64,000 nt of DNA, from positions 99,902 to 163,901 of the forward strand of contig JBDRJV010000037.1 in the NCBI GenBank assembly GCA_043814605.1, written 5' to 3'. Origin of the DNA: Candidatus Omnitrophota bacterium (GTDB lineage: Bacteria; Omnitrophota; Gorgyraeia; B26-G9). Under the pieces are notes generated by a model that saw nothing but the letters and a program-made list of their open reading frames with translations, was not told where the DNA came from and did not search any database. Shown piece by piece: positions 6,529 to 37,146 of this stretch (position 1 is its first letter; the number at the start of each line of letters is the position of its first letter). The translations under genes were made by a program, and so were the position numbers.

Positions 6529-7626
6529 ATGGAACTTGATATTATTGAAATACTAAGGACTATGGTTAAACTCGGCGCTTCGGATGCTCATTTTAAAGTA
6601 GGAAGGGCCCCTATATTCCGAATTAAAAAAGAACTGACCAGTTCATCTTTCCCAATTATGAATAATAAGGACATTGAAAAAATTGCCTACTTTATGATGC
6701 GGGAGCGTCACCGCAAAGAATTTGAAAAGAAAAATGAAATTGATTTTTCTTATCAATTGCCGGAAATCGGCAGATTCAGGGTTAATGTTTTCCGGCAACG
6801 GGGTGATATCGGTATGGTGATGCGGATTGTAAAAAATCAAGTCCCCAGTTTTGAAGCCTTAACTTTACCTCCGATATTTAAGAAAATCGCGATGTTTGAA
6901 CGAGGTATAGTTTTAATTACCGGGGCGAGTTCTCAAGGTAAATCAACAACGCTAGCGGCAATTATCGATTATATTAACAAAAATAAAAAGTGTCATATCA
7001 TGACGATAGAAGATCCCATAGAGTATATTCATGAAGACCAGCAGGCCTTAATTAATCAAAGAGAAGTTGGCTTAGATACAGAGTCTTTTCATTTAGCTTT
7101 GCGTTACGTAATTCGCCAGGATCCAGATATAATTTTAATCGGAGAAATGCGTGATGCAGAAACATTTCAGACTGCATTATCCGCAGCTGAAACCGGGCAT
7201 CTTGTTTTTGCTACATTACATGCTTCGGATACTTCGCAAGTAGTGGATAGAATATTAGATTTTTTCCCAACGGCACAACATGATATGATTAGAATGCAAT
7301 TAGCTTTTAATTTACGTGCGGTGAGTTCTCAACGTCTCATGCCACGAGTCGATGGGACAGGTGTGGTGCCGGCGATTGAAGTAATGATTATTAACCCCAC
7401 AATTATGAAGTTGATCCGGGAAAATAAAACGGACAGATTATCCAGCACTTTACAAGCCTTTACCAAAGAAGGTATGATCACATTTAATCAATCTTTAGTT
7501 AATCATGTCAAAGCTAATCTGGTGAGTTTAGAAACAGCTTTAGCCAATTCTAGTAATCCGGAAGCGTTGAAAATGAACCTTAAAGGTATTTATTTAGATG
7601 AGGATCGTAGAATTTTAGGTGAATAA
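6529..7626 (+). CDS. pilT: type IV pilus retraction ATPase PilT
   Basis: PilT N-terminal block and Walker A GASSQGKSTT. 365 aa. Confidence 0.85.
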   Translation: MELDIIEILRTMVKLGASDAHFKVGRAPIFRIKKELTSSSFPIMNNKDIEKIAYFMMRERHRKEFEKKNEIDFSYQLPEIGRFRVNVFRQRGDIGMVMRIVKNQVPSFEALTLPPIFKKIAMFERGIVLITGASSQGKSTTLAAIIDYINKNKKCHIMTIEDPIEYIHEDQQALINQREVGLDTESFHLALRYVIRQDPDIILIGEMRDAETFQTALSAAETGHLVFATLHASDTSQVVDRILDFFPTAQHDMIRMQLAFNLRAVSSQRLMPRVDGTGVVPAIEVMIINPTIMKLIRENKTDRLSSTLQAFTKEGMITFNQSLVNHVKANLVSLETALANSSNPEALKMNLKGIYLDEDRRILGE

Positions 7627-9140: not shown

Positions 9141-10496
9141 ATGGGCAACAAATTGATTTTAGCTTTTGGAGTTTTAAGCCTGATTTTTTTAGTAATCATA
9201 ATTAGTTCTCATAGTATATTTCATTACAATCATACAGTACAAGATCAGAAGGAAAAAGCCTGGGTTTTAGGCAATACCCTGGCAAAATCCCTGGAATTGC
9301 CCATGCTTGAGGGAAAAATGAACACACTTCAAGAAATGCTGGTTACGGTGGGAGAACTAGAAAATTTTGAAAGAGTTCATTTAACCGATGATCAAGGGAT
9401 GATTCGTTATAGTTCAATTCCCGAAAGAATTAATACTCCGACAGGCTCAATAATCATTAAGCAAGCTTTAAAAGAAAGAAAATCTATTGGTAATTTTGAG
9501 CAGCGAGGTGATGATTATATTTTTAGCTTGGCTTTACCGATTTTAAATGAGCCGCGCTGTTATAACTGTCATGGTCAAAAAAAGGATATTTTGGGAGTTT
9601 TGCGTATCGGGATTGACTGGGCGCCAATGAAGAAAACACTTTCAAAGGTATTACAAAGAGATGTTTTTGTTTCCCTGATTTTTTATATCGTCATTATTTT
9701 ACTCTCTTTTCTTTTTCAACGCCTTTATACAAATGCACAGATTGCACTAAATAGTTTTAAACAAGCCCAGGAGCAGTTAATTAAAACAGAAAAAATGGCG
9801 GCAGTAGGACAAATGGCCGCCGCAATCAGCCATGATTTAAGAAATCCTTTAACCGGCATAAAAATGGCGACCTATTATTTGAACAGCAAAATTGACGAAA
9901 ATAATATTGAACAGCAGAATATTTTAAAGGATATTGAATTAGAAATTAATTATGCTAGTAATGTGGTAACTAATATTTTGACATATTCTCGGCCTACAGA
10001 TTTAATATTTTCGCGCAGTAATATTAATAAAATTATTGAAGAAACAATGAATTTTATTCATTTGCAAAATCGTGATGCATCTTTTGAAATTATTAAAAAT
10101 TACGACTTAAATTTACCGGAAATATTTATCGACAATAAACAAATAAAACAGGTAATTATTAATGTTATTTCGAATGCGATTCAAGCTATGCCGAAAGGTG
10201 GCCAGCTAAAAATAAGCACGCGGACAAATGGCAGTTTTATTGAAATTATTATTGAAGATTCAGGTGTGGGTATTCCCAAAAAAGTTTTAGAAAATATTTA
10301 TACGCCGTTTTTTACAACCCGGGCTCGAGGAGTGGGGTTAGGATTGTCAATTGTCAGTAACATTGTTAAAAAGCACGGTGGGCAAACTCAAATAAGCAGT
10401 ACTTTAGGCAAAGGAACAAAGTTTATAGTTAGATTGCCAATTTTTCAAGATATTGAAAATAAAAGGATGTTAGAACATGACAGTGAAGAAAGTTGA
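9141..10496 (+). CDS. membrane sensor histidine kinase with periplasmic CxxCH (heme c) motif
   Basis: Two TM segments flank a ~140-aa periplasmic domain containing CYNCHG. HisKA H-box ISHDLRNPL. HATPase_c motifs (G1/G2 boxes). Confidence 0.8.
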   Translation: MGNKLILAFGVLSLIFLVIIISSHSIFHYNHTVQDQKEKAWVLGNTLAKSLELPMLEGKMNTLQEMLVTVGELENFERVHLTDDQGMIRYSSIPERINTPTGSIIIKQALKERKSIGNFEQRGDDYIFSLALPILNEPRCYNCHGQKKDILGVLRIGIDWAPMKKTLSKVLQRDVFVSLIFYIVIILLSFLFQRLYTNAQIALNSFKQAQEQLIKTEKMAAVGQMAAAISHDLRNPLTGIKMATYYLNSKIDENNIEQQNILKDIELEINYASNVVTNILTYSRPTDLIFSRSNINKIIEETMNFIHLQNRDASFEIIKNYDLNLPEIFIDNKQIKQVIINVISNAIQAMPKGGQLKISTRTNGSFIEIIIEDSGVGIPKKVLENIYTPFFTTRARGVGLGLSIVSNIVKKHGGQTQISSTLGKGTKFIVRLPIFQDIENKRMLEHDSEES

Positions 10497-27608: not shown

Positions 27609-28445
27609 TTACTCTGAGATATTCCTGTCCAGACTACGGTATTGGATTGCCTCGGATATATGATCGGGGGAAATATTTTCCATGCCGGACAAATCAGCAA
27701 TAGTCCTGGCCACCTTTAAAATCTTATCATATGCTCTGGCGGATAACCCCAGCTCATCAATGGCCATTTTTAAAAGGTTTTTTGATTCGTTATCAATATT
27801 ACAATACTTTTTAATTTGCTTATGAGACATATAAGCATTGGCAAAAATGTCGTCTTTTTTAAAACGCTTAAACTGAATCGTTCGTGTTTGATTAACACGT
27901 TTTCTGATTTGTTCTGAAGATTCAGTTATTGGCTCATCAATGAGTTGTTTATAATTGATCGGGGGCACTTCGATATGAATGTCAATCCTGTCTAATAATG
28001 GCCCGGATATTTTCGCACGGTATTGCTCAATACGGTAGGGCGTACACCGGCAAACTTTTGTCGGATGAGTAAAAAACCCGCACGGACAAGGATTCATAGC
28101 ACAAACCAGCATAAAACGGGCTGGAAAACTAACCGTTCGCGCGGCACGGGAAACAGTAACAAATCCGTCTTCCAATGGCTGCCTTAAGGCTTCCAGTACA
28201 TTACGGTTAAACTCAGGCAGTTCATCTAAAAAAAGAATTCCATGATGTGCTAAACTAACTTCTCCGGGCCGAGGATTTGAGCCGCCGCCAACTAACGCAA
28301 TATCACTGGTTGTATGGTGCGGAGCACGAAAAGGCCGGGTTCCGATTAGAGCCTGATTGGCTTTAAGTAATCCGTTAATACTATAAATTTTTGTGGTTTC
28401 CAGTGATTCATCCAAACTAAGCGCAGGAATAACTGTTGGGATTCT
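27609..28445 (-). pseudogene. comM: comM/yifB Mg-chelatase-like competence protein, C-terminal fragment (gene disrupted by insertion)
   Basis: Homology to ComM resumes at RIPTVIPALSLDE...HHTTSD. The fragment carries no Walker A. The N-terminal half lies 8 kb away at 36446-37146. Confidence 0.8.
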
Positions 28446-30058
28446 TTGTTTAACTCGTAATGATTTGATGATTCTATTTCTTTCTGATATTCTGCTAAAC
28501 ATAGTAAATCAAAATCTCCCTTTAGTTCTATGTCCCAACCTGTTGTTTCATTATAACCTAACACGATTTCATTGACAATAAGTCTTATGAGCTTATCTTT
28601 TTCCTCTTTAGAATTGAAATTATCTAAATTCTTACTCATTGCAATCAGTATCTTTTCTAATTCTTTAATTTTCAAAGAGAAATGTTGTTTATCTGATAGT
28701 CTAGTTTTTAAAATTTTAGTTTGCTTTTCAAATTCTAATTTCTTAACCCTATGTTCCTCTGAAAGTTCGTCTAACATTTTTTCACTAAATTTTCCAGAAG
28801 CATATTGGGTAAGTAGTCTTTTGATAGCATTATCACAAAAATTAATTTCCTTTTCCAATGATAAAATTTTGGTTTCTATTTCTAATTTATTAACAAAGCT
28901 GTTGTTTTCATGATGTGAAATAGCTGATTTGAGAGTATCTTTAGACTTCATCAATTGGCAAATAACAAACCAAACCTTATTAAATAGTAAATCCGCATTT
29001 ATTGGGGGTAAATCACATTTTTTGTTATCAGGGTGGTATTTAAACTCTTTTCTAATATATCGGTTATAACAAGCATAGCTTTTATGCCAATAGGATTTCT
29101 CGCCATATTTTTTCCTGTCAATCCAAGATATTCTGCCAATAACATGCTTACCACATCTGGAACATGTTAAAAGATTTTTTAATGGTATGAACTTATTGGG
29201 GATACTTCTTCTGTGTGTTGCTCTTCTGTTTTCTTTAAGCTTTCTCAAAAGTAAGTCCCTTTTTTGTTTTGTGATTAAAGAGGGAATAGAGACACCTGTA
29301 ATGCCATTTTTATCGTTATCTTTGCCAAGGTAGAAGGGATTATGGAATATTCCTAAAAGTGTATGGTTTTGCCAATGTAATATTCGTTTTCTTTGGAAAT
29401 TTTGACCCTCTCTAGCTGTGGGGATTCCTATCCTGTTTAGCTCCAAACAAATATCTCTTGCAGATTTACCTTCTAAATACCAATCAACCATTTTGTGATA
29501 TATTTTTGCCTTTTCCTCGTCTATCTCAAAACATCTACGTTTTCCTTTAGTAACTGTTTTATATCCATAAGGTAACATATGTCCTGTGAAATAGCCTTCT
29601 TTTTTGAGATTTCGCTTTGCTTTTACTCTTCTTTCAATATCCTCAGAAGTTTGTTTGCCTGTGACTGTTGAGTATATCCCTAACATCATTTTGTCGCTAC
29701 CATTTTCTAAATCATAAATTTTATTGCCAACAATTAGCTGGGTTATCTTTTTACCATAAAGCAAATGTTGAATAAATTCACCTCTTACAAATTCATTCCT
29801 ACTTAATCTTTCCATATTCCAATACGCTGGAATATCTCCCTCTTGTAGAGAGTCTAAAATATCAAGTAAATCAGGTCTATCTTTTAAAAATTTGGGCTCT
29901 GTGCTGGATTGAGTATATTTTTTGATAACAATTTCATAATTCCTAAAAGCTGGGATACTTTTTGCAAAGCTTATGATGTCATTCTCTTGAACTTCTATCC
30001 CTTGACCTTGTTCTTGTGGTTTGCTACTTATTCTAGTAACAGCAAATATTTTAGCCAT
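28346..30058 (-). CDS. large serine recombinase (integrase)
   Basis: N-terminal resolvase-type catalytic domain, then a recombinase domain, a zinc ribbon (CSRCGKHV) and a coiled coil. 570 aa. Strong RBS AAGGAGG. The last 33 codons lie left of the junction, in comM-derived DNA. Confidence 0.85.
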   Translation of the reverse strand: MAKIFAVTRISSKPQEQGQGIEVQENDIISFAKSIPAFRNYEIVIKKYTQSSTEPKFLKDRPDLLDILDSLQEGDIPAYWNMERLSRNEFVRGEFIQHLLYGKKITQLIVGNKIYDLENGSDKMMLGIYSTVTGKQTSEDIERRVKAKRNLKKEGYFTGHMLPYGYKTVTKGKRRCFEIDEEKAKIYHKMVDWYLEGKSARDICLELNRIGIPTAREGQNFQRKRILHWQNHTLLGIFHNPFYLGKDNDKNGITGVSIPSLITKQKRDLLLRKLKENRRATHRRSIPNKFIPLKNLLTCSRCGKHVIGRISWIDRKKYGEKSYWHKSYACYNRYIRKEFKYHPDNKKCDLPPINADLLFNKVWFVICQLMKSKDTLKSAISHHENNSFVNKLEIETKILSLEKEINFCDNAIKRLLTQYASGKFSEKMLDELSEEHRVKKLEFEKQTKILKTRLSDKQHFSLKIKELEKILIAMSKNLDNFNSKEEKDKLIRLIVNEIVLGYNETTGWDIELKGDFDLLCLAEYQKEIESSNHYELNKESQQLFLRLVWMNHWKPQKFIVLTDYLKPIRL

Positions 30059-30297
30059 TTAATACCTCCTTTTTAAACATAATGCTGAGAGGGGAGAGAT
30101 AAAGAGAGGGGAGAGTGACAAAGAATAATCGATTATATATCCGATGATAATATCCCACATAGTGATATCCTCTTACATCAGGTTACTAATACTTGATAAT
30201 CAGCCATTAGAGCTATGTTATTCAAATAGATAGGACAAAGTATATCCTTAAAACTAAAAACGCGATACTACCTTGATACAGCTTTAATTCTAGTAAT

Positions 30298-30705
30298 TTA
30301 ATCTTTATCTGTTGACTGTTTTGAATTAGATTTGAAAAATAGGCTTAAAAAGTCATGCATTCTAGACTTCCAACCATTTTTATTTAATGTGTTCACATCT
30401 TCAGCGGAATATTTATATAAACTATCTTCAGATGAGTATGCGGATATTAACCTCTGAGAATTATATTTACCCTTATACAGAGCCAAAAACGGAAACTCGT
30501 GTAACCATTTCAATGTTTTAGCAGATTGAGCAGTCTGGATATGAGTTTTGCTGAAGCTTTCTTCATTTAAATACCACTCTAGGACATCTTTAACATTCAA
30601 AAGTTTCTCTCTTTTTTTTTGTAAGGGTATAACACGCTTTAATTGCTCATCAATCTCGAAGATTTCCTGTTCTAATTTAACCAAAGATATGTTATTCAAA
30701 AGCAT
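30298..30705 (-). CDS. hypothetical protein (135 aa)
   Basis: ORF in an operon with two upstream small ORFs. No recognisable motifs. Confidence 0.4.
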   Translation of the reverse strand: MLLNNISLVKLEQEIFEIDEQLKRVIPLQKKREKLLNVKDVLEWYLNEESFSKTHIQTAQSAKTLKWLHEFPFLALYKGKYNSQRLISAYSSEDSLYKYSAEDVNTLNKNGWKSRMHDFLSLFFKSNSKQSTDKD

Positions 30706-30707
30706 AG

Positions 30708-31094
30708 TTACATCTCCATTTTTTCTATTTTTTTAATCGCAATTAACGATTTGTGATAATCTTTAATGCCTTTACGTTCATAACGTAGATGATTAGGTAA
30801 TGCTGAATCATCCATTTGAGCCACCATACGATTTACTTTATCGGTGTATTGATTGAGGTCGTTTTTTTGTCTCTCATAAGTTTTCTTATGATACTCTTTG
30901 CCTGTTTGGTCTTCGGTTTCAATATCCTTGATTGCACGAGCTTCCTCATTGACTACTGAAATTCTAATATCTTTGCCAAATTTATTCTCAAGCATTTCCT
31001 TAATCTTACTTTCAAAGTTACTATCAAGAACTTTCCTATCAGAAGTTTGCATGCCTAGAGTTACTATAAACTGAACTTCTTTTACTGGAATCAT
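30708..31094 (-). CDS. hypothetical protein (128 aa), highly charged
   Basis: ORF with an ATGA overlap to the upstream 59-aa ORF. No recognisable motifs. Confidence 0.4.
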   Translation of the reverse strand: MIPVKEVQFIVTLGMQTSDRKVLDSNFESKIKEMLENKFGKDIRISVVNEEARAIKDIETEDQTGKEYHKKTYERQKNDLNQYTDKVNRMVAQMDDSALPNHLRYERKGIKDYHKSLIAIKKIEKMEM

Positions 31095-31270
31095 TTTGTA
31101 TTTTCACCCCCTTTTATGTGTTTTTCCAACCACTTAACATAACTTACCCACTCATAAGCAAGAAGCTTCTCATATTCTTTTTTTCTGTAAAATTCTCTTG
31201 CTTCCGTAAATGAGGGAAGTTTTTTATAAAATTCTCTTTCAAGTTTATTTTTTAATTTTAACTTTCTCAT
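31091..31270 (-). CDS. small ORF (59 aa) missing from the ORF track, first gene of a 3-gene operon
   Basis: Hand translation gives MRKLKLKNKLEREFYKKLPSFTEAREFYRKKEYEKLLAYEWVSYVKWLEKHIKGGENTK. Its stop overlaps the next ATG. Confidence 0.3.
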   Translation of the reverse strand: MRKLKLKNKLEREFYKKLPSFTEAREFYRKKEYEKLLAYEWVSYVKWLEKHIKGGENTK

Positions 31271-31293
31271 TTATTATCTTTCCATTTTATGTT

Positions 31294-31417
31294 GGATAGT
31301 ATAGAAGTAGTCCTGGGGAGGACAGAGTCAAGTGTTAGAACTCTGAAGTTTCATAACCTCTATACTATCCATGGTGAGGATTAATCGGGTGAAAAGCCCG
31401 ACAATCGCAGTGTCCTC
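31294..31417 (-). ncRNA. structured non-coding region (nested inverted repeats). Candidate ncRNA or recombination/origin site
   Basis: A 12-13-bp perfect inverted repeat GGATAGTATAGA(A)G / CTCTATACTATCC encloses two hairpins (TCCT-GGGG-AGGA and CAGAGT...ACTCTG). A second domain TGAGGA...TCCTCA encloses CGGG-TGAAAAG-CCCG. The strand is not determined. Confidence 0.3.
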
Positions 31418-31641
31418 AGTATATATCAAAAAATTTTTATGCTTTACTTTTAACATTTATTCCTCTGAAAACTAAAAACGTATTTATCTCAATGCTTACT
31501 GTATGCTTTGGTGGACTAGACTACAAAAAAGGTTAGTACCCCCCTATATTAATCAACATACAACCTCTGACAAAAAAATGGTCGATTGTTTCAATGCCAT
31601 ACTTTTTCTCATTTACTTTCATTACTCATTTACTCCTCAAG

Positions 31642-32220
31642 TCAGCAGACTGGGGAAATACTAGACAACTCCAAGCTACCTTTTTTCTCAGCTCTTTTAA
31701 GAGCATGGTATTGGAGATAGGGAAGAGGGGAGCGTTTCTTTATATCTTTCTTTCCCTTTGGTCTTCCTAACTTTTTTCCATTTAACTTAGCTCGTTTAAT
31801 GCCGTCCTTTGTTCTTTCTACTATAAGGTCTCTTTCAAATTGAGCCATAGCTCCGAGTATATGGAAAAACAACTTTCCATTAGCTGAACCAGTATCAATG
31901 TTTTCTCGTAAAGTGATAAGCTCTACTTTGTATTTATCGAAAAGCTCTAACAGACCAATAAGCTGTTTTAGACTTCGTGCTAATCGAGATAGTCTTTTTA
32001 TGACAACTTTTTCTATTTGACCTAATCTGATTCGTTCTATTAAATCGTGTAGTACAGGTCTTTTAGTGATGAATCCACTAGCAGTTTCTAAAAACATTCT
32101 GCACTTATTATGTGGGATTTGATGAGATTCTATATAGTCACGAAATATTAATTGCTGGTTTTCATTAGTTTGCTCGTCAGTAGAAACTCTGCTATAAAAT
32201 GCGATAAATTTATTATCCAT
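31642..32220 (-). CDS. small serine recombinase (resolvase/invertase family)
   Basis: Catalytic motif FYSRVSTDEQ, a conserved RLSRLARS block and a C-terminal GRPKGKK basic tail. Confidence 0.85.
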   Translation of the reverse strand: MDNKFIAFYSRVSTDEQTNENQQLIFRDYIESHQIPHNKCRMFLETASGFITKRPVLHDLIERIRLGQIEKVVIKRLSRLARSLKQLIGLLELFDKYKVELITLRENIDTGSANGKLFFHILGAMAQFERDLIVERTKDGIKRAKLNGKKLGRPKGKKDIKKRSPLPYLQYHALKRAEKKGSLELSSISPVC

Positions 32221-32303
32221 GTCTTAACCCTCCTTTTAATTTTAAAATATGATTTTTCCTAATCCAAGTAAAGAACTTTGTCTTACTGAAGGCAAAAAAG
32301 TTT

Positions 32304-32819
32304 TTAATTGTAGAGGGAAATCTGGGATTCATGTTTTTTCTTGTTTTTCCTCGGAAATCTATTTGTTCTTTGTGCTTTGATATACTTAAAGTAATTCTTT
32401 GAACGAGGTCTGCCAATTACTTTAGTTGTTTTCGATAATCCTATTATTGTTCTGTTTGCTGAAATATCATGCCTACAAATGTCTAAGCACTTAGCTATTT
32501 TCACTACTGAATATTCCTTTAATGTGTCTATATCATCATCAATAGAAATCAATCTAGCTTTGTACTTTGAAACCAAAATTAAAAATCTTGTTAAATTCTT
32601 AATCGGAAAACCCAATACTGAAAGTCGGGGAACTACTACAATTTTTATTTCCCCAGTCCTGATGCTACTGAATATTTCGTTTAATGTTTTATGGTCAGCA
32701 GGGGAGGCTTCTGAATAAAACACACATTGGGATATTGTAATCTGTTTTTCGGATAGGAACCTCTCCAATGATGAATTGCCCTTGTCATAGCAATAGCAAG
32801 CAACATTTTGCACTAACAT
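32304..32819 (-). CDS. resolvase-like paralog with degenerate catalytic motif (likely inactive)
   Basis: Aligns with the neighbouring resolvase (IKIVVVPRLSVLGF vs IEKVVIKRLSRLAR; IGRPRSK vs LGRPKGKK). The nucleophile region reads CYCYDKGNSS instead of YSRVSTDEQ. Confidence 0.55.
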   Translation of the reverse strand: MLVQNVACYCYDKGNSSLERFLSEKQITISQCVFYSEASPADHKTLNEIFSSIRTGEIKIVVVPRLSVLGFPIKNLTRFLILVSKYKARLISIDDDIDTLKEYSVVKIAKCLDICRHDISANRTIIGLSKTTKVIGRPRSKNYFKYIKAQRTNRFPRKNKKKHESQISLYN

Positions 32820-33249
32820 TACTTTGACACCTTCTTTCTTCCATTGGTCTTTGATTTATATATAAAATTACTCAGAGTTGACATCATAGCCTTTTATTAG
32901 TCCTCAATATTGGTTTTCTCTTTGCAAATGGGGGAAAGGTTACGAACTAACCAATTCGCAATATCTATCTGCCTCTTTTGCCTGTCATCAAGAGGGAGAT
33001 TCTTTAATCTTACATTTATTTCAGTATCATTTTTTCTTTTCATCATTACCAACAACAATATATATAATAATCCCTACTATTACGGTTTTTAAAGTTCCCT
33101 CAGTTAAGATAATATATCTACTAATGCTAAAATTAAGGTTTTTTTAAAACTTTTTTAAAATTTTCTCTGTTCACTATAAATAACGCCTATTAGAGCTTAA
33201 CCCTAATAAAATTTAAGGGTAAAGTTTAGTTTTTTGTTTTGTGTTATAA

Positions 33250-33831
33250 TTAAATACTCTTTGGAACAAATACACCTAAATCTGTTAACTCTTTAATTAT
33301 CTCGAACTCGGATTTAAATGTCTTATCGCTTAATTTTCTTCTCTGTTCAGAACTATACATATCCCTTAGGCATCTATTTACTATTGCCCAATAGGAACTA
33401 TTGAGGAGGGGATTAGCCCGTTTCTCATATACAATCTGATTTATTTCAACATCTTCAATTTTTACATTACATAGTTTAAGGATTAGTTTCTGATAACTTT
33501 TTTTCCAATGATAATAAGCCCAACGCTTAAGCTTTTTGGGATGAACGTAAAAATACTTTGGACAGCTTTGTATAACAACTCTACTGCGAGGAACTTTTCC
33601 AGTGAGTGTTTTATTACGTCTAATGCAATCTAACTCTTTCCAAAGCTGTTCTATACGAATATCTGAATCTTTTAGTGTAATCAGAGAAACTACTCTGGAT
33701 TTCTTCTTTGCATAGCGTTTGTGATATCCCAATGTGTTTCTCACTCTGCCATTACTCTTAGCATTTTGATTGCCAAAGTAATTGGCATTTTTCCTTTTAA
33801 CTGAATCCTTTTTTCCCTTTGGTCGTCCCAT
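33250..33831 (-). CDS. hypothetical basic protein (193 aa) beginning MGRPKGKKD...
   Basis: The N-terminus nearly duplicates the GRPKGKKDIKKR tail of the adjacent resolvase. No other motifs. Confidence 0.45.
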   Translation of the reverse strand: MGRPKGKKDSVKRKNANYFGNQNAKSNGRVRNTLGYHKRYAKKKSRVVSLITLKDSDIRIEQLWKELDCIRRNKTLTGKVPRSRVVIQSCPKYFYVHPKKLKRWAYYHWKKSYQKLILKLCNVKIEDVEINQIVYEKRANPLLNSSYWAIVNRCLRDMYSSEQRRKLSDKTFKSEFEIIKELTDLGVFVPKSI

Positions 33832-34062
33832 GGTTCCTCCTTATTATGCTCTTACCTATATTAACTATTTAAGTCGCTTATTTTGAACTTTTTTTTCCTA
33901 TTATGTTTCAATGGGTTACAGAAATTATTAAAAATAAAAAAATGGCTAAAATGCTATTTTTCCTATAAGTCTTTATTTTGCAGTAATTTATAGTTTTTAA
34001 AAATCAATAAAGTTGTTTCTTGTTGTTTAACAAGAAGTTACGTAAATAAATGATAATTTACA

Positions 34063-34100
34063 CAAAAAAAACCCCTCGGCTCTTTTGAACCGAAGGATTA
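34063..34100 (-). terminator. rho-independent terminator (minus strand) after the 190-aa gene
   Basis: Minus strand reads CCTTCGG-loop-CCGAGGG followed by TTTTTTTT. Confidence 0.4.
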
Positions 34101-34198
34101 AACCGTCAGTAGACGCTTGCCCTCAACAGCAATATCTTATCTTTAAATAAAGTTCACCTTGAAGAAAGCATAAAGTTAAATTTGTTGCATTTAACGTT

Positions 34199-34771
34199 TT
34201 AACTTTTAAGTTGTTTAAAATAATTATAAAAACCGGAACAGATATCGGGAAATATGAAAAATATAAAATAAATAATCACCAATAATCCTATAAAGGCAAG
34301 ACCATAAAGTATCCTTGTTACCCACTTATTAGGAGGAGTATAGAGCCGTAGTGGCAATTCTTTAGCAATTCCTTGGTCGTAAGTAATTGCAGTATATATT
34401 TGCTTGGGGATATAACTGATTTTATTTTCTAAATAAGCGATAGTAATGAATTCTTCGGGAGCGATTGAATTTATTTTTATTATTTTGTTAGGTGTATCAA
34501 TGGTAATTTTATTGGCAATATGTGGGGAGTAGTTAATTTGTAATGGAAAAAAGTTATGACAAATATTTATATTAGTAGCTTGAGTTTTCCCCCGATTAAC
34601 TAGATGTAAGCTATGTTGCCAAAGATTAACTGATTGATTAGGCGCTGGAAGTTGAACATTGAATCCCCGAATTTCTTCAATGTTAAATAATACTTTTGGT
34701 CTGGTATGTGAATATTTCTCATAAAAGAATCTAATTGCGTATCCAAAAACAACCAGTATAAAATCTTTCAT
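34199..34771 (-). CDS. hypothetical protein with C-terminal TM helix (190 aa)
   Basis: ORF with a C-terminal hydrophobic segment LAFIGLLVIIYFIFFIF. Confidence 0.4.
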   Translation of the reverse strand: MKDFILVVFGYAIRFFYEKYSHTRPKVLFNIEEIRGFNVQLPAPNQSVNLWQHSLHLVNRGKTQATNINICHNFFPLQINYSPHIANKITIDTPNKIIKINSIAPEEFITIAYLENKISYIPKQIYTAITYDQGIAKELPLRLYTPPNKWVTRILYGLAFIGLLVIIYFIFFIFPDICSGFYNYFKQLKS

Positions 34772-34977
34772 TAGAATAGCTCCTTCCTTACATTAGCCAC
34801 GCTAAGACCGCAATCATAGCAAAAGTTATAATAACACATATAATCTCCCATTTGCCAAGAGGTTTCTCTTCTCAGGAGGGGGTAGGTGCATAGAATAAGT
34901 TTACAAGTATGTTTACTATTTTTATTGCTCTTCTTTTTTCCTCAGAGTTTTAATTGCCTAATTTATAAACCTAAGGA

Positions 34978-35493
34978 TTAACTGTCAGGATATATTTTAT
35001 GTTTAAGTATTTCTATTGTAACTTCATTAAGTATTTTTTTAACTTCTTTAAGGTTTTCTTTAAACTTTTTAGATGCTTCTATTCGAGTTGTTGTCTCAAA
35101 TTGTCCTGAATTTTCTACCTTTTCTAACACTAAGTCTATATTAAACTTTATGTTGCCATTTTGTTTTTCTGATATTTTTATTGATGAGGGGTTAAACATA
35201 TAATTATGGGCAAAAGCGTTTCGTATTCGAGCAATTTCAAAAAATTTATGCCTTGTTTTCGCATTAATTCCATAACTTATATTTGAACATATATTAAAAA
35301 AAACCTTTATCTTATCCGCTAAACTTACTATTGACGAATTTAATACTATATCTCTAACAAATTTTCCTTTGCCTTTTTGGGGAGTAATATAGTGAGTAAT
35401 AATTTGTTTTATATTAGCATCTATAAGATTAGTTTGGTCAATAACAAATGCTAGGTCATTATAGTCTTTTTGAAAAGAACTTTTGTTTTTCAC
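34978..35493 (-). CDS. HEPN-domain protein (R-N-x3-H motif), candidate RNase toxin / abortive-infection effector
   Basis: EIARIRNAFAHN contains the canonical HEPN Rx4-6H motif. The surrounding residues are predicted all-alpha. Overlaps the upstream small membrane ORF by 4 nt. Confidence 0.6.
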   Translation of the reverse strand: MKNKSSFQKDYNDLAFVIDQTNLIDANIKQIITHYITPQKGKGKFVRDIVLNSSIVSLADKIKVFFNICSNISYGINAKTRHKFFEIARIRNAFAHNYMFNPSSIKISEKQNGNIKFNIDLVLEKVENSGQFETTTRIEASKKFKENLKEVKKILNEVTIEILKHKIYPDS

Positions 35494-35777
35494 TTCTTAT
35501 CCATTCTATCCTCGAGTTCAGAGACTTCATTTTCGAGTTCGCTTACTTTGTGTTTTAGCACATTTATTTCACCTCGAAGACTTCCATCTTTGTTTTGAAA
35601 TTCTTCCTGACTTTCTTCAATCTTTTGTATAATCCATTTTTTTATGCCTTCCCATATAGCCACAATGAATATTCCTATTAAACAGTAAAACCAAAATTCT
35701 CGTACCCAGTGAGGCAAGTTAAATATAAAGTCCAATACATACAATATTAGTATACCTATTATAAAAGCTCCAAACAT
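35490..35777 (-). CDS. small membrane protein (2 TM) with C-terminal coiled coil
   Basis: Hydrophobic N-terminal half. The C-terminus is heptad-like (VSELENEVSELEDRMDKK). RBS GGAGGTT. Confidence 0.5.
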   Translation of the reverse strand: MFGAFIIGILILYVLDFIFNLPHWVREFWFYCLIGIFIVAIWEGIKKWIIQKIEESQEEFQNKDGSLRGEINVLKHKVSELENEVSELEDRMDKK

Positions 35778-35789
35778 TATAAAACCTCC

Positions 35790-35871
35790 GAAATTTACAT
35801 GGCTTTATTATATGCTACTAAAAAGTATAAAGTCAATTTTATCTACAATGTTGTATTGAGAGAATAAAAGG
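35790..35871 (-). promoter_or_regulatory. promoter/5'UTR cassette copy A (TTGACT-18-TATAAT plus conserved upstream box)
   Basis: Near-identical to the cassette at 36360-36447. Shared blocks are TATTATATGCTACTA, ATAAAG.CAATTTT and AATGTTGT.TTG.G.GAATAAAAGG. Confidence 0.45.
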
Positions 35872-35891
35872 CATAGTTAAGTTGTTATGGG

Positions 35892-36359
35892 TTATATTTT
35901 TTTCCAAATACACTCAGAAGATTCAATTTTTTGAGTATCTCTGTCAAACCAAGTAGCTTGACCTTTCATGCTCAATCTATCAGGGGTAACCATTAATTGA
36001 ATCATTCCAGTTCCACAAATATTTCCTTGTTCACCTTTTTTAATATATGAACCATTTACCATATCATGTTCTATTTTACAAGTATAAGTAAAAATTCTAT
36101 GGTCGTCCTGAGTTTCCCCAGTGCCCTTAACTGTGTCTGCAAACTGTTTTAATTGAACAATCTCCAGTGTCTCGTTCCATTTAGAGGGGTCTAAATCTGA
36201 AGGCTCTTTGAAGGTATGTTCCCATTTGCCAGTAAGATTAAATTTATTTGGATTTAGCAAGTGGAATAATGTAGCAATTGTAGAATCCATAAAATTTCTG
36301 AAAGGTGGGAAAATATAGTTTGTTAATAACCCTAACAGCAATCCTAAAGCAAAATTCAT
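35892..36359 (-). CDS. hypothetical protein with N-terminal TM helix (155 aa)
   Basis: MNFALGLLLGLLTNYIF hydrophobic start, then a Cys-containing soluble domain. RBS GGAGGTT. Confidence 0.45.
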   Translation of the reverse strand: MNFALGLLLGLLTNYIFPPFRNFMDSTIATLFHLLNPNKFNLTGKWEHTFKEPSDLDPSKWNETLEIVQLKQFADTVKGTGETQDDHRIFTYTCKIEHDMVNGSYIKKGEQGNICGTGMIQLMVTPDRLSMKGQATWFDRDTQKIESSECIWKKI

Positions 36360-36447
36360 ATTAACCTCCTAACTTACTCAATATTATATGCTACTATTAT
36401 GAATAAAGCCAATTTTTTCCATAATGTTGTGTTGGGTGAATAAAAGG
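36360..36447 (-). promoter_or_regulatory. promoter/5'UTR cassette copy B, ending at the element's right boundary
   Basis: TTGGCT-18-TATAAT. The upstream box CCTTTTATTCACCCAACACAACATT abuts the GGGATTCT core. Confidence 0.45.
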
Positions 36448-37146
36448 GATTCTACGTGCGAGCATTGTTTTGCCTGAACCTGGAGGGCCGATGAGTAAAA
36501 TATTATGATTCCCTGCAACCGCGACCTCTAAGGCACGTTTGGCAAATTCCTGGCCCTTGACATCAGACATATCTGTTGTATAGTGAGCAAATTTCTTTAA
36601 TTCAATATCAGGATTTGCTTTTTGTGGGGCGATATCAATTTCCTGATTGAGAAAAGCCACTGCCTGGGTTAAAGAATCAATGGGATATACAGAAGAATTA
36701 CTCACAACAGCAGCTTCTTGAGCATTTTCACTGGCAACTAAAATATTTTTATGCTGGTCTCTGATTCCTAAGACCATAGAGAGAATACCTTTAATTGGCT
36801 TGATTGTCCCATCTAAAGATAATTCTCCCATAATCAAAAAATCATTTAACCGGCTTTTATTCAATATGGAGCTTGCCGCAAGAATTCCTAAAGCAATCGG
36901 TAAATCATAAGCAGATCCCTGCTTCTTCGTATCTGCCGGGGCCAGATTTATAGTTATTTTTTTTACCGGAAAATTAAATCCAGAGTTTTTTATAGCTGAA
37001 CGGACTCTATCTTTAGATTCTTTTACCGCGTTATCCGGCAATCCTACAACGGATATTTGCGGTAAGCCGCGTCCAATATCCACTTCAATTTCCAGTAAAT
37101 GACCTTGGATTCCGGAAACAAAAGCGCTGAAAATTTTTGCTAACAT
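36446..37146 (-). pseudogene. comM: comM/yifB N-terminal fragment (Walker A GPPGSGKT), truncated by the insertion
   Basis: [24 protein letters not shown]...[15 protein letters not shown], then homology ends at the core. After the core the frame reads [15 protein letters not shown] and stops at 36397. Confidence 0.8.

What the first reader, a model, noticed from the sequence alone, without database searches (positions are those of the whole stretch)
28346..28500. Recombinase ORF crosses the attachment site: C-terminal tail is host-encoded and switches with integration state
The large serine recombinase reading frame continues 33 codons past the GGGATTCT core into comM-derived DNA (tail ESQQLFLRLVWMNHWKPQKFIVLTDYLKPIRL). 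Joining the element ends as in an excised circle gives a different 22-aa tail ([22 protein letters not shown]) and then a stop. The enzyme's C-terminus, and what is transcribed downstream of it, would therefore differ between integrated and excised forms. This is a possible built-in directionality switch.
Basis: inference. Interest (0 to 1): 0.65.

Follow-up and report, generated by a model that had tools for sequence, protein, structure and literature searches.

The report
Recombinase gene that spans its attachment site
An 8-kb mobile element sits inside the comM gene of an Omnitrophota bacterium, and its integrase gene runs across the insertion junction, so the enzyme's last 20-30 amino acids change when the element enters or leaves; relatives share this layout, but the swapped tails are not conserved and are probably a harmless by-product, not a switch.

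Summary
A 570-aa large serine recombinase (LSR; 30058->28346, minus strand) reads through the 8-bp direct repeat GGGATTCT (28438-28445; second copy 36446-36453). Deleting 28446-36453 restores an intact 509-aa comM. The integrated tail is 30 residues of frame-shifted comM DNA. The reconstructed circle gives a different 20-residue tail.

The layout is a trait of a small LSR clade. Two more elements could be resolved completely: L014 in comM and L017 in the 3' end of a DUF819 gene. Three others were resolved partly (L001, L004, L015). In all of them the ORF crosses the crossover block. Comparing the identity blocks of the window and L014 narrows the crossover to AGAAT (28441-28445).

The switch interpretation is not supported. 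The tails differ in length and sequence in both states. Their lengths are within chance for 33% GC DNA. AlphaFold2 gives pLDDT below 50 for residues 533-570. More distant LSRs end right after the last conserved beta-hairpin.

The best reading is a compact int-attP module whose disordered C-terminal appendage is swapped neutrally. A regulatory effect like that of Mx8 IntP/IntX is not excluded. Insertion of LSR elements into comM is already well known.

The parts
28346..30058 (-). Large serine recombinase ORF as it exists in the integrated state (570 aa)
   Evidence: ORF list. Pfam Resolvase, Recombinase and Zn_ribbon_recom. Foldseek top hits are the SPbeta, Bxb1, PhiC31 and LI serine integrases. 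R9, S11 and four Cys are conserved.
28438..28445 (.). Core copy 1 (GGGATTCT; AGAATCCC on the LSR strand), at the junction between the element and the comM 3' fragment; lies in codons K538-Q541
36446..36453 (.). Core copy 2, at the junction between the element and the comM 5' fragment
28441..28445 (.). Inferred crossover window (AGAAT on the LSR strand): the overlap of the identity blocks of the window (AGAATCCC) and of the L014 element (AAAAGAAT), whose attP cores share AAAGAATCCCT
   Evidence: This is an inference that assumes both enzymes cut at the homologous attP position.
28446..36445 (-). Body of the integrative element (8,000 bp; 8,008 bp with one core copy); its listed ORFs of 90 aa or more are all on the minus strand except one overlapping reading frame; no phage structural genes recognised
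   Evidence: ORF lists. Pfam and PHROGs. Synteny with the L004 element.
28346..28438 (-). Host-encoded tail of the integrated LSR (30 codons plus stop); it reads comM DNA in the -1 frame
36384..36445 (-). Element right end that would encode the alternative 20-residue tail ([20 protein letters not shown]) in the excised circle. It also holds the presumed P' arm of attP and a promoter-like TTGGCT-18-TATAAT (36412-36383) whose -10 box contains the stop codon
27609..28437 (-). comM 3' fragment (Mg_chelatase and Mg_chelatase_C)
36454..37146 (-). comM 5' fragment (ChlI domain and Walker A GPPGSGKT)
31642..32220 (-). Small serine recombinase (192 aa, Resolvase domain). A counterpart is present in every related element
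   Evidence: Pfam, PHROGs, tblastn, gene tables.

Best explanation
This is a small (8.0 kb) integrative element of a Candidatus Omnitrophota bacterium. It is inserted in comM by its own large serine recombinase.

In this LSR clade the phage-type site attP overlaps the last codons of the recombinase gene. The P arm is coding sequence, the crossover lies in codons 538-540, and the P' arm lies at the other end of the element. Every integration or excision therefore exchanges whatever follows the crossover. Here 20 element-encoded residues are replaced by 30 residues of frame-shifted comM.

The exchanged segment lies beyond the last conserved structural element of the zinc-ribbon domain (beta-hairpin 497-513 and a short helix). 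It is most likely a disordered, dispensable appendage. On this reading the swap is a neutral consequence of a compact int-attP module, not a regulatory device, and directionality is presumably set as in other LSRs by the coiled-coil and a directionality factor.

Shown by tool results or directly by the sequence: the junctions, the restored comM, both tails, recurrence in relatives, and non-conservation of the tails. Inferred: the position of the crossover dinucleotide, the dispensability of the tail, and that the element is still mobile.
For: - Junctions and restored comM.
- LSR identity.
- L014 (LSR P0130): a 6,315-bp element in comM with direct repeat AAAAGAAT. Restored comM is 512 aa. Tails are KE|YLLLCLI* (integrated) and KE|SLSNSLSNTPYFDKLSFEVKGNLAEFCG* (excised).
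- L017 (P0132): a 9,150-bp element in the DUF819 3' end with direct repeat GTTCCAACGA at LSR residue 539. Tails are ...SSND|IP* and ...SSNE|QLPNYDFGGLEIEIVETCSL*.
- L001 (P0002): the ORF runs at least 12 codons into comM, in the same relative frame as in the window.
- L004 (P0003): the ORF overlaps DUF819 by about 130 nt.
- L015 (P0131): putative core ACCAC, with tails of 6 and 10 residues.
- The attP core AAAGAATCCCT is shared by the window and L014.
- Tails are hypervariable after the conserved hairpin and helix, and distant LSRs P0004 and P0005 end at the hairpin.
- pLDDT is below 50 for residues 533-570.
- Run-on lengths are within chance.
- The excised-form tail reads through a promoter-like element.
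- Mg-chelatase (comM-type) genes are targeted by 12.4% of predicted site-specific LSRs (PMC10083194).
Against: - No circular junction, empty site or excised-form protein was found. The attP 32-mer is absent from IMG/VR. The restored ComM and the excised LSR are absent from the 15-billion-protein collection. Current mobility and the excised protein are therefore inferred.
- The arrangement has persisted across LSRs as little as about 24% identical to the window enzyme, which could reflect selection rather than inertia.
- In other LSRs the extreme C-terminus can matter. Abe et al. 2021 on SprA is known to me by title only (cited in PMC11722253). PhiC31 residues D590-D592 contact the RDF (bioRxiv 10.1101/2025.05.02.651858).
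- Disorder prediction from an 8-sequence alignment is weak evidence.
Confidence: 0.7

Rival explanations
1. State-dependent C-terminus as a regulatory device. The circle-encoded form would be the integration-proficient enzyme. The chimeric prophage form would have altered activity, RDF response or stability, which would stabilise the integrated state or bias direction.
For: - The swap is real and is conserved as an architecture in every clade member examined.
- Precedent in a tyrosine integrase: Mx8 attP lies inside int, and integration creates a new 3' end and changes integrase properties (PMC6070905; PMC4383910).
- LSR C-termini can take part in directionality control: the SprA paper title (cited in PMC11722253) and the PhiC31 acidic C-terminus contacting gp3.
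Against: - There is no conservation of length, charge or sequence of either tail among family members, and no consistent direction of change: 30 vs 20, 7 vs 28, 3 vs 21 and 6 vs 10 residues.
- No C-terminal degron-like motif is apparent by eye (my own reading of the tail sequences).
- Tail lengths are within chance.
- pLDDT is low.
- Distant LSRs lack any tail.
- In L017 and L004 the tail region is dictated by antisense DUF819 coding sequence.
Confidence: 0.17
2. Autoregulation through DNA binding rather than through the protein tail. The junction site attL/attR overlaps the 3' end of the LSR gene. LSR bound there could act as a transcriptional roadblock or otherwise couple its own expression, and read-through into comM', to site occupancy.
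For: - The P arm lies in codons of about 530-540.
- The element genes and comM are co-oriented, so transcripts cross the site.
- Integrase binding to an att site overlapping its own gene's control region is known for KplE1 IntS (PMC2951348, seen in the listing; the mechanism is from my own knowledge).
Against: This is purely inferential. Promoter- and terminator-like counts in the region are at chance, and there are no expression data.
Confidence: 0.06
3. A decayed, immobile remnant: the ORF extension is an accident in a dead element, for example through loss of an original stop codon.
For: - No excised form was detected.
- The L001 junction lacks the AAAGAAT core seen in its 55%-identical relative, with a 15-nt gap in the alignment. 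That copy may be damaged.
Against: - The 8-bp repeats are perfect and comM is restorable without frameshift or stop.
- The LSR ORF is intact with catalytic R9 and S11 and four Cys.
- The same arrangement occurs in three independent complete elements with perfect repeats.
Confidence: 0.05

Closest known systems
Large serine recombinase integrative elements that target comM / Mg-chelatase-like genes (Durrant et al. 2022, PMC10083194)
   Same: LSR with Resolvase, Recombinase and zinc-ribbon/coiled-coil domains. Short identity block (8 bp). Insertion inside the comM coding sequence, which splits the gene without duplicating it. That paper reports Mg-chelatase/ATP-dependent protease genes as targets of 12.4% of predicted site-specific LSRs.
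   Different: The LSR belongs to a very small, divergent clade. A word-indexed search of 5.8 billion proteins found three members. A full HMMER scan found about eight clearly related representatives. In this clade attP overlaps the 3' end of the LSR ORF. I found no description of that for LSRs in four literature searches.
Myxophage Mx8 IntP/IntX (tyrosine integrase with attP inside int)
   Same: The attachment site lies within the 3' part of the integrase coding sequence. Integration generates a recombinant gene with a new 3' end and an altered C-terminus (PMC6070905; PMC4383910).
   Different: Mx8 uses a tyrosine recombinase, and the altered protein was shown experimentally to have changed properties. 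Here the enzyme is a serine recombinase. The swapped part lies beyond the conserved fold, is not conserved among relatives, and has no functional data.
SSV-type 'suicidal' archaeal integrases
   Same: The att site is carried inside the integrase ORF, giving a compact int-att module (PMC8371274; PMC7253208, abstract).
   Different: SSV-type integration splits the gene into two parts and inactivates it. Here all catalytic and DNA-binding domains stay intact and only a 20-30 residue tail changes.
SPbeta SprA and PhiC31 Int: role of the extreme C-terminus
   Same: Same enzyme class. C-terminal residues are disordered in cryo-EM maps (28 residues in SPbeta; residues 590-605 in PhiC31), yet they are implicated in directionality or RDF contact.
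   Different: In those phages the C-terminus is fixed and element-encoded. No integration-dependent change is described in the papers read.
Target-restoring islands (tRNA-gene islands; phage 21/e14 in icd, the latter from my own knowledge)
   Same: In the DUF819-targeting relatives (L017, probably L004) the element carries a diverged copy of the last ~17 codons of the target gene. The gene therefore stays intact after insertion.
   Different: The recombinase is an LSR, and the replacement gene end is encoded antisense within the LSR's own 3' end. This does not apply to the window element, which simply disrupts comM.

Membership tests
Large serine recombinase (LSR / serine integrase) | N-terminal resolvase-type catalytic domain with a nucleophilic serine | tested here: met
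   Pfam PF00239, E=2.6e-8, residues 7-155. R9 and S11 are invariant in the 8-sequence alignment and nearly invariant among 24 sequences.
Large serine recombinase (LSR / serine integrase) | Recombinase domain (PF07508) following the catalytic domain | tested here: met
   PF07508, E=4.3e-13, 49.8 bits against a cut-off of 21.1.
Large serine recombinase (LSR / serine integrase) | Zinc-ribbon domain with four Cys and an inserted coiled-coil | tested here: met
   PF13408 scores 20.5 bits, below the cut-off of 25.3. However, C299, C302 and C348 are invariant and C330 nearly invariant. The AlphaFold2 model has long helices at 373-420 and 426-480 flanked by beta-strands.
Large serine recombinase (LSR / serine integrase) | Overall fold matches solved serine integrases | tested here: met
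   Foldseek hits: serine-integrase complexes 9y66 and 9dxh (E about 1e-20), which I take to be the SPbeta integrase structures of PMC11722253; Bxb1 9iu2 (1.5e-14); PhiC31 9rah (1.9e-12); LI integrase 4kis (3.7e-11). A sequence-only PDB search found nothing relevant.
Large serine recombinase (LSR / serine integrase) | Short att sites sharing only a small identity block that contains a 2-bp crossover | tested here: inconclusive
   The 8-bp identity block is shown and is narrowed to AGAAT by comparison with L014. Dyad symmetry is weak, at most 10 of 22 positions. The dinucleotide itself is not determined.
Large serine recombinase (LSR / serine integrase) | Catalyses attP x attB recombination; excision needs an RDF | not testable with these tools
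   No biochemical data. No RDF was identified among the element ORFs.
comM-targeting LSR elements | Insertion inside comM (YifB/Mg-chelatase-like AAA+), with precise restoration of the ORF on removal | tested here: met
   Restored 509-aa ComM with Pfam domain continuity. The same codon position (after Walker A...RIP|T...) is used in L014 and L001.
Integrases whose ORF spans attP with a C-terminal change on integration (Mx8 IntP/IntX type) | Crossover inside the integrase ORF, so that integration creates a different 3' end | tested here: met
   for the window. for relatives.
Integrases whose ORF spans attP with a C-terminal change on integration (Mx8 IntP/IntX type) | Tyrosine recombinase chemistry | tested here: not met
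   The enzyme is a serine recombinase. The resemblance is one of architecture, not homology.
Integrases whose ORF spans attP with a C-terminal change on integration (Mx8 IntP/IntX type) | The altered protein has measurably different activity | not testable with these tools
   Indirect evidence argues against a specific role: the tails are non-conserved.
SSV-type suicidal integrases | Integration splits the integrase gene and inactivates it | tested here: not met
   All LSR domains (residues 1 to about 525) remain contiguous in the integrated state.

The most novel reading that the evidence does not exclude
In this LSR clade, placing attP inside the 3' end of the recombinase gene would be a selected state sensor. 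The enzyme made from the circle and the enzyme made from the prophage would differ at the C-terminus. That difference (loss of an element-encoded tail, gain of an arbitrary host-encoded one), or LSR binding to a site inside its own gene, would change RDF responsiveness, stability or expression, and so bias integration versus excision. This would be a serine-recombinase counterpart of Mx8 IntP/IntX.
Probability: 0.13. Interest if true: 0.7.

Novelty: new variant of a known kind. Interest (0 to 1): 0.36.

Why it matters
There are three reasons, in decreasing order of certainty.

1. Practical. LSR sequences mined from integrated elements for genome engineering can carry host-derived C-termini. 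The 'native' integration-proficient enzyme is the circle-encoded form. For this clade the annotated proteins are chimeras over their last 3-30 residues. Examples are MFH1460485.1, P0002, P0003 and P0130-P0132.

2. Mapping. The layout helps to locate the crossover. Comparing two elements with the same attP core but different host identity blocks narrows it to 5 bp.

3. Biological. If the swap did affect activity, it would be a directionality or stability input for serine integrases that does not depend on a separate factor. The present evidence makes this unlikely.

The DUF819-targeting relatives also show an unusually compact arrangement. The replacement end of the target gene is encoded antisense within the recombinase's own 3' end.

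Tried and rejected
- Dyad-symmetry scan of the reconstructed attP and attB to find the central dinucleotide. The signal was weak (best 10 of 22) and not decisive.
- Search for the excised form. The attP 32-mer is not in IMG/VR. The excised-form LSR and the restored ComM are not in the 15-billion-protein collection.
- Scans for relatives. Genome, viral and metagenome scans with the first 3-sequence profile added nothing new. The second word-indexed protein search added only distant LSRs. The full HMMER scan was what yielded usable relatives.
- My first placement of the L004 junction. I first put it at the DUF819 stop codon, because DUF819 looked intact. I revised this after L017 showed that the element supplies a replacement DUF819 end, which puts the crossover at the GTTCC of ...NI(E/V)GT....
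- An apparent 'AH.RS' motif shared by the P0002 and P0003 tails. I do not treat it as a protein motif. It lies in DNA adjoining the junction, next to comM in one and within the DUF819 end in the other, so it may reflect similar att sequence or chance; I did not test this.
- Promoter and terminator scan. Counts are at chance (46 vs 42.6; 7 vs 4.9), so no weight was placed on individual sites.
- Literature. My recollection that Streptomyces phage R4 sre has attP within its ORF could not be checked, because the paper is not held. The Mx8 primary papers are not held either. Four searches found no description of an LSR ORF spanning attP. That is absence from this library, not proof of novelty.
- Sequence-only PDB search gave only a spurious hit.
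- Contigs for P0134 and P0135 were unavailable or too short to be informative.
Full report
**What is at the coordinates.**
The window carries a 570-aa ORF on the minus strand, 30058->28346. It has Resolvase, Recombinase and zinc-ribbon Pfam domains. Its AlphaFold2 model matches the solved SPbeta, Bxb1, PhiC31 and Listeria serine integrases. NCBI names it a recombinase family protein of a Candidatus Omnitrophota MAG.

Immediately downstream on the same strand lies the 3' part of comM, with Mg_chelatase and Mg_chelatase_C domains. The 5' part of comM (ChlI domain and the Walker A motif) lies 8 kb away at 36397-37146.

The octamer GGGATTCT occurs at 28438-28445 and at 36446-36453. Removing 28446-36453 fuses the two comM parts in frame into an intact 509-aa ORF...[28 protein letters not shown].... 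The octamer is not rare (4 copies against 1.85 expected). The restoration of comM is what proves the junctions. No identity extends beyond the 8 bp, so the crossover must lie inside it.

**The observation.**
On the LSR strand the core reads AGAATCCC and overlaps codons K538, E539 and S540. After S540 the integrated ORF continues for 30 codons in the -1 frame of comM, giving QQLFLRLVWMNHWKPQKFIVLTDYLKPIRL*. Joining the element ends through one core copy gives a 560-aa protein with a different 20-residue tail, [20 protein letters not shown].

Its '33 codons' includes E, S and the stop. The tail lengths carry no information in themselves. In this 33% GC window a random frame runs 31 codons or more in 16-23% of cases and 20 codons or more in 27-33%.

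**Relatives.**
The LSR belongs to a small, divergent clade. A word-indexed search of 5.8 billion proteins found only P0002 (40% identity) and P0003 (33%). Scans of genome, metagenome and viral contigs added nothing. A full HMMER scan of 1.84 billion representatives added P0130-P0135 and more distant members. Genomic context could be fetched for several of these.

| Locus (LSR) | Target | Element size | Identity block (LSR strand) | Residues after block, integrated / excised | Status |
|---|---|---|---|---|---|
| window | comM | 8,008 bp | AGAATCCC | 30 / 20 | complete |
| L014 (P0130) | comM | 6,315 bp | AAAAGAAT | 7 / 28 | complete; restored comM 512 aa |
| L017 (P0132) | DUF819 3' end | 9,150 bp | GTTCCAACGA, at LSR residue 539 | about 3 / 21 | complete |
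| L015 (P0131) | intergenic, between flavodoxin and CutA1 | about 6.2 kb | ACCAC (putative) | 6 / 10 | inferred, no empty site |
| L001 (P0002) | comM | other end missing | not resolved | at least 12 host codons / unknown | partial |
| L004 (P0003) | DUF819 3' end | other end missing | GTTCC (by analogy with L017) | about 26 / unknown | partial |

Further details on individual loci:
- L014. The tails are KE|YLLLCLI* (integrated) and KE|SLSNSLSNTPYFDKLSFEVKGNLAEFCG* (excised).
- L017. The tails are ...SSND|IP* and ...SSNE|QLPNYDFGGLEIEIVETCSL*. The 60 nt on the element side of the right-hand repeat copy are 58% identical to the displaced host DUF819 end. On the other side the figure is 23%. The element therefore supplies a replacement for the last ~17 DUF819 codons, encoded antisense within the LSR's own 3' end. 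DUF819 is 390 aa in both the occupied and the reconstructed empty state.
- L001. The ORF enters comM at the same comM codon and in the same relative frame as in the window.
- L004. The ORF overlaps DUF819 by about 130 nt. By analogy with L017, the crossover is at the GTTCC of ...NIEGT... . This fits the fact that its DUF819 diverges from its closest homologues exactly after NIEGT.
- L015. The P and P' arms resemble those of the window.

All these elements share a small resolvase-like gene. Where tested by tblastn (against L004), they also share other ORFs in the same order. An attP that overlaps the 3' end of the LSR gene is thus a trait of the family, across three different targets.

**Position of the crossover.**
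The reconstructed attP sites of the window and of L014 share the core AAAGAATCCCT. The identity blocks with their respective comM genes differ, however: AGAATCCC against AAAAGAAT. If both enzymes cut at the homologous position, the crossover lies in AGAAT, which is window 28441-28445. The putative L015 site is compatible with GAAT. Dyad symmetry is too weak to choose a dinucleotide.

**Does the tail matter?**
The evidence points to no specific role.
- In the 24-sequence alignment, conservation ends at a beta-hairpin (I.IDY...I.I) and a short helix, window residues about 497-525. After that, lengths and sequences are hypervariable.
- More distant LSRs such as P0004 and P0005 stop right at the hairpin.
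- AlphaFold2 gives pLDDT below 50 for residues 533-570.
- The tails of the six elements share nothing in either state, and no direction of change is consistent.
- In the window, the circle tail reads through a promoter-like TTGGCT-18-TATAAT, whose -10 box contains the stop codon.
- In L017 and L004 the tail region is the antisense of DUF819 coding sequence.

Non-conservation is shown here. Dispensability is inferred.

**Why a function cannot be excluded.**
- The arrangement is retained among LSRs as little as about 24% identical to the window enzyme.
- For a tyrosine integrase the same architecture is regulatory. Mx8 attP lies inside int, and integration creates a new 3' end and alters integrase behaviour (PMC6070905). 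Integrases that extend across attP are also noted for Mx8 and SSV in PMC4383910.
- For LSRs, the extreme C-terminus of SprA has been proposed as part of a directionality toggle (Abe et al. 2021, which I know by title only, as cited in PMC11722253).
- An acidic patch at the PhiC31 C-terminus contacts the RDF (bioRxiv 10.1101/2025.05.02.651858). In both cryo-EM studies the last residues are otherwise disordered.
- No circle junction, empty site or excised-form protein exists in the collections I could query. Present-day mobility is therefore inferred from the perfect repeats and the intact ORFs.

**Comparison with what is known.**
Insertion of LSR elements into comM/Mg-chelatase genes is common: 12.4% of predicted site-specific LSRs target them (PMC10083194). 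The element is therefore a new member of a known kind. What is less familiar is that the LSR ORF itself spans the crossover. Four literature searches returned no description of this for serine integrases. My recollection of such a case in phage R4 could not be checked. The feature is architecturally like Mx8 IntP/IntX and unlike the SSV 'suicidal' integrases, because here all domains stay intact.

**Verdict.**
- The interpretation as a directionality switch is not supported.
- The most likely explanation is a neutral by-product of a compact int-attP module (confidence about 0.7).
- The main practical consequence is that LSR proteins annotated from prophage-state sequences of this clade have chimeric C-termini.

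Noticed in passing
L017:466-475 and 9616-9625 (also L004:~6744-6800): DUF819-targeting relatives carry a diverged replacement of the last ~17 codons of the target gene, encoded antisense inside the LSR's own 3' end. DUF819 therefore stays 390 aa before and after insertion. The 60 nt on one side of the 10-bp repeat are 58% identical between the two copies, against 23% on the other side.
   Followed up: partly
L014:1606-3581: The comM-inserted relative carries a putative type II restriction-modification pair as cargo: an N6_N4_Mtase (420 aa) and an MvaI_BcnI endonuclease (238 aa).
   Followed up: no
window 31642-32220 and 32304-32819 (minus strand): There is a 192-aa small serine recombinase (PHROG 'DNA invertase', E=6e-45). 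Next to it is a degenerate resolvase-like ORF (171 aa, PF00239 below cut-off). A ~183-203 aa resolvase gene is present in every related element (L004, L014, L015, L017). Its role beside the LSR is unknown.
   Followed up: partly
window 28502 and 28578-28550 (minus strand): An ATG inside the LSR 3' end is in frame with the comM 3' fragment (ORF 28502->27609, 297 aa, MFSRISERNRIIKSLRVKQ|RIPTV...). It is preceded by a promoter-like TTGTCA-17-TATAAT. The product would lack the Walker A motif. Promoter-like counts in the region are at chance.
   Followed up: no
L001:11996-12434: A second comM 3' fragment lies 9 kb from the first on the same contig. It is 85% identical in protein to residues 115-253 of the first fragment and begins at the NPCPCG motif. 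It may be a trace of another comM-targeting insertion.
   Followed up: no
L011 / L012: A distant LSR (P0004) sits on a 7,036-bp contig recovered from two samples. The two loci show the same genes in rotated order, which suggests a circular element. It has a D5_N primase and a 62-aa Maf fragment directly after the LSR stop.
   Followed up: no
window 34099-34070 (minus strand): This is the strongest terminator-like hairpin in the element (13 pairs, 6 GC, T-run). It lies between ORFs 34199-34771 and 33250-33831 and suggests at least two transcription units in the element.
   Followed up: no
L001:2380-2400 vs L014:7575-7600: The L001 junction lacks the AAAGAAT core present in its 55%-identical relative, with a 15-nt gap in the alignment. 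That copy may have a junction deletion or may use a shifted crossover.
   Followed up: partly
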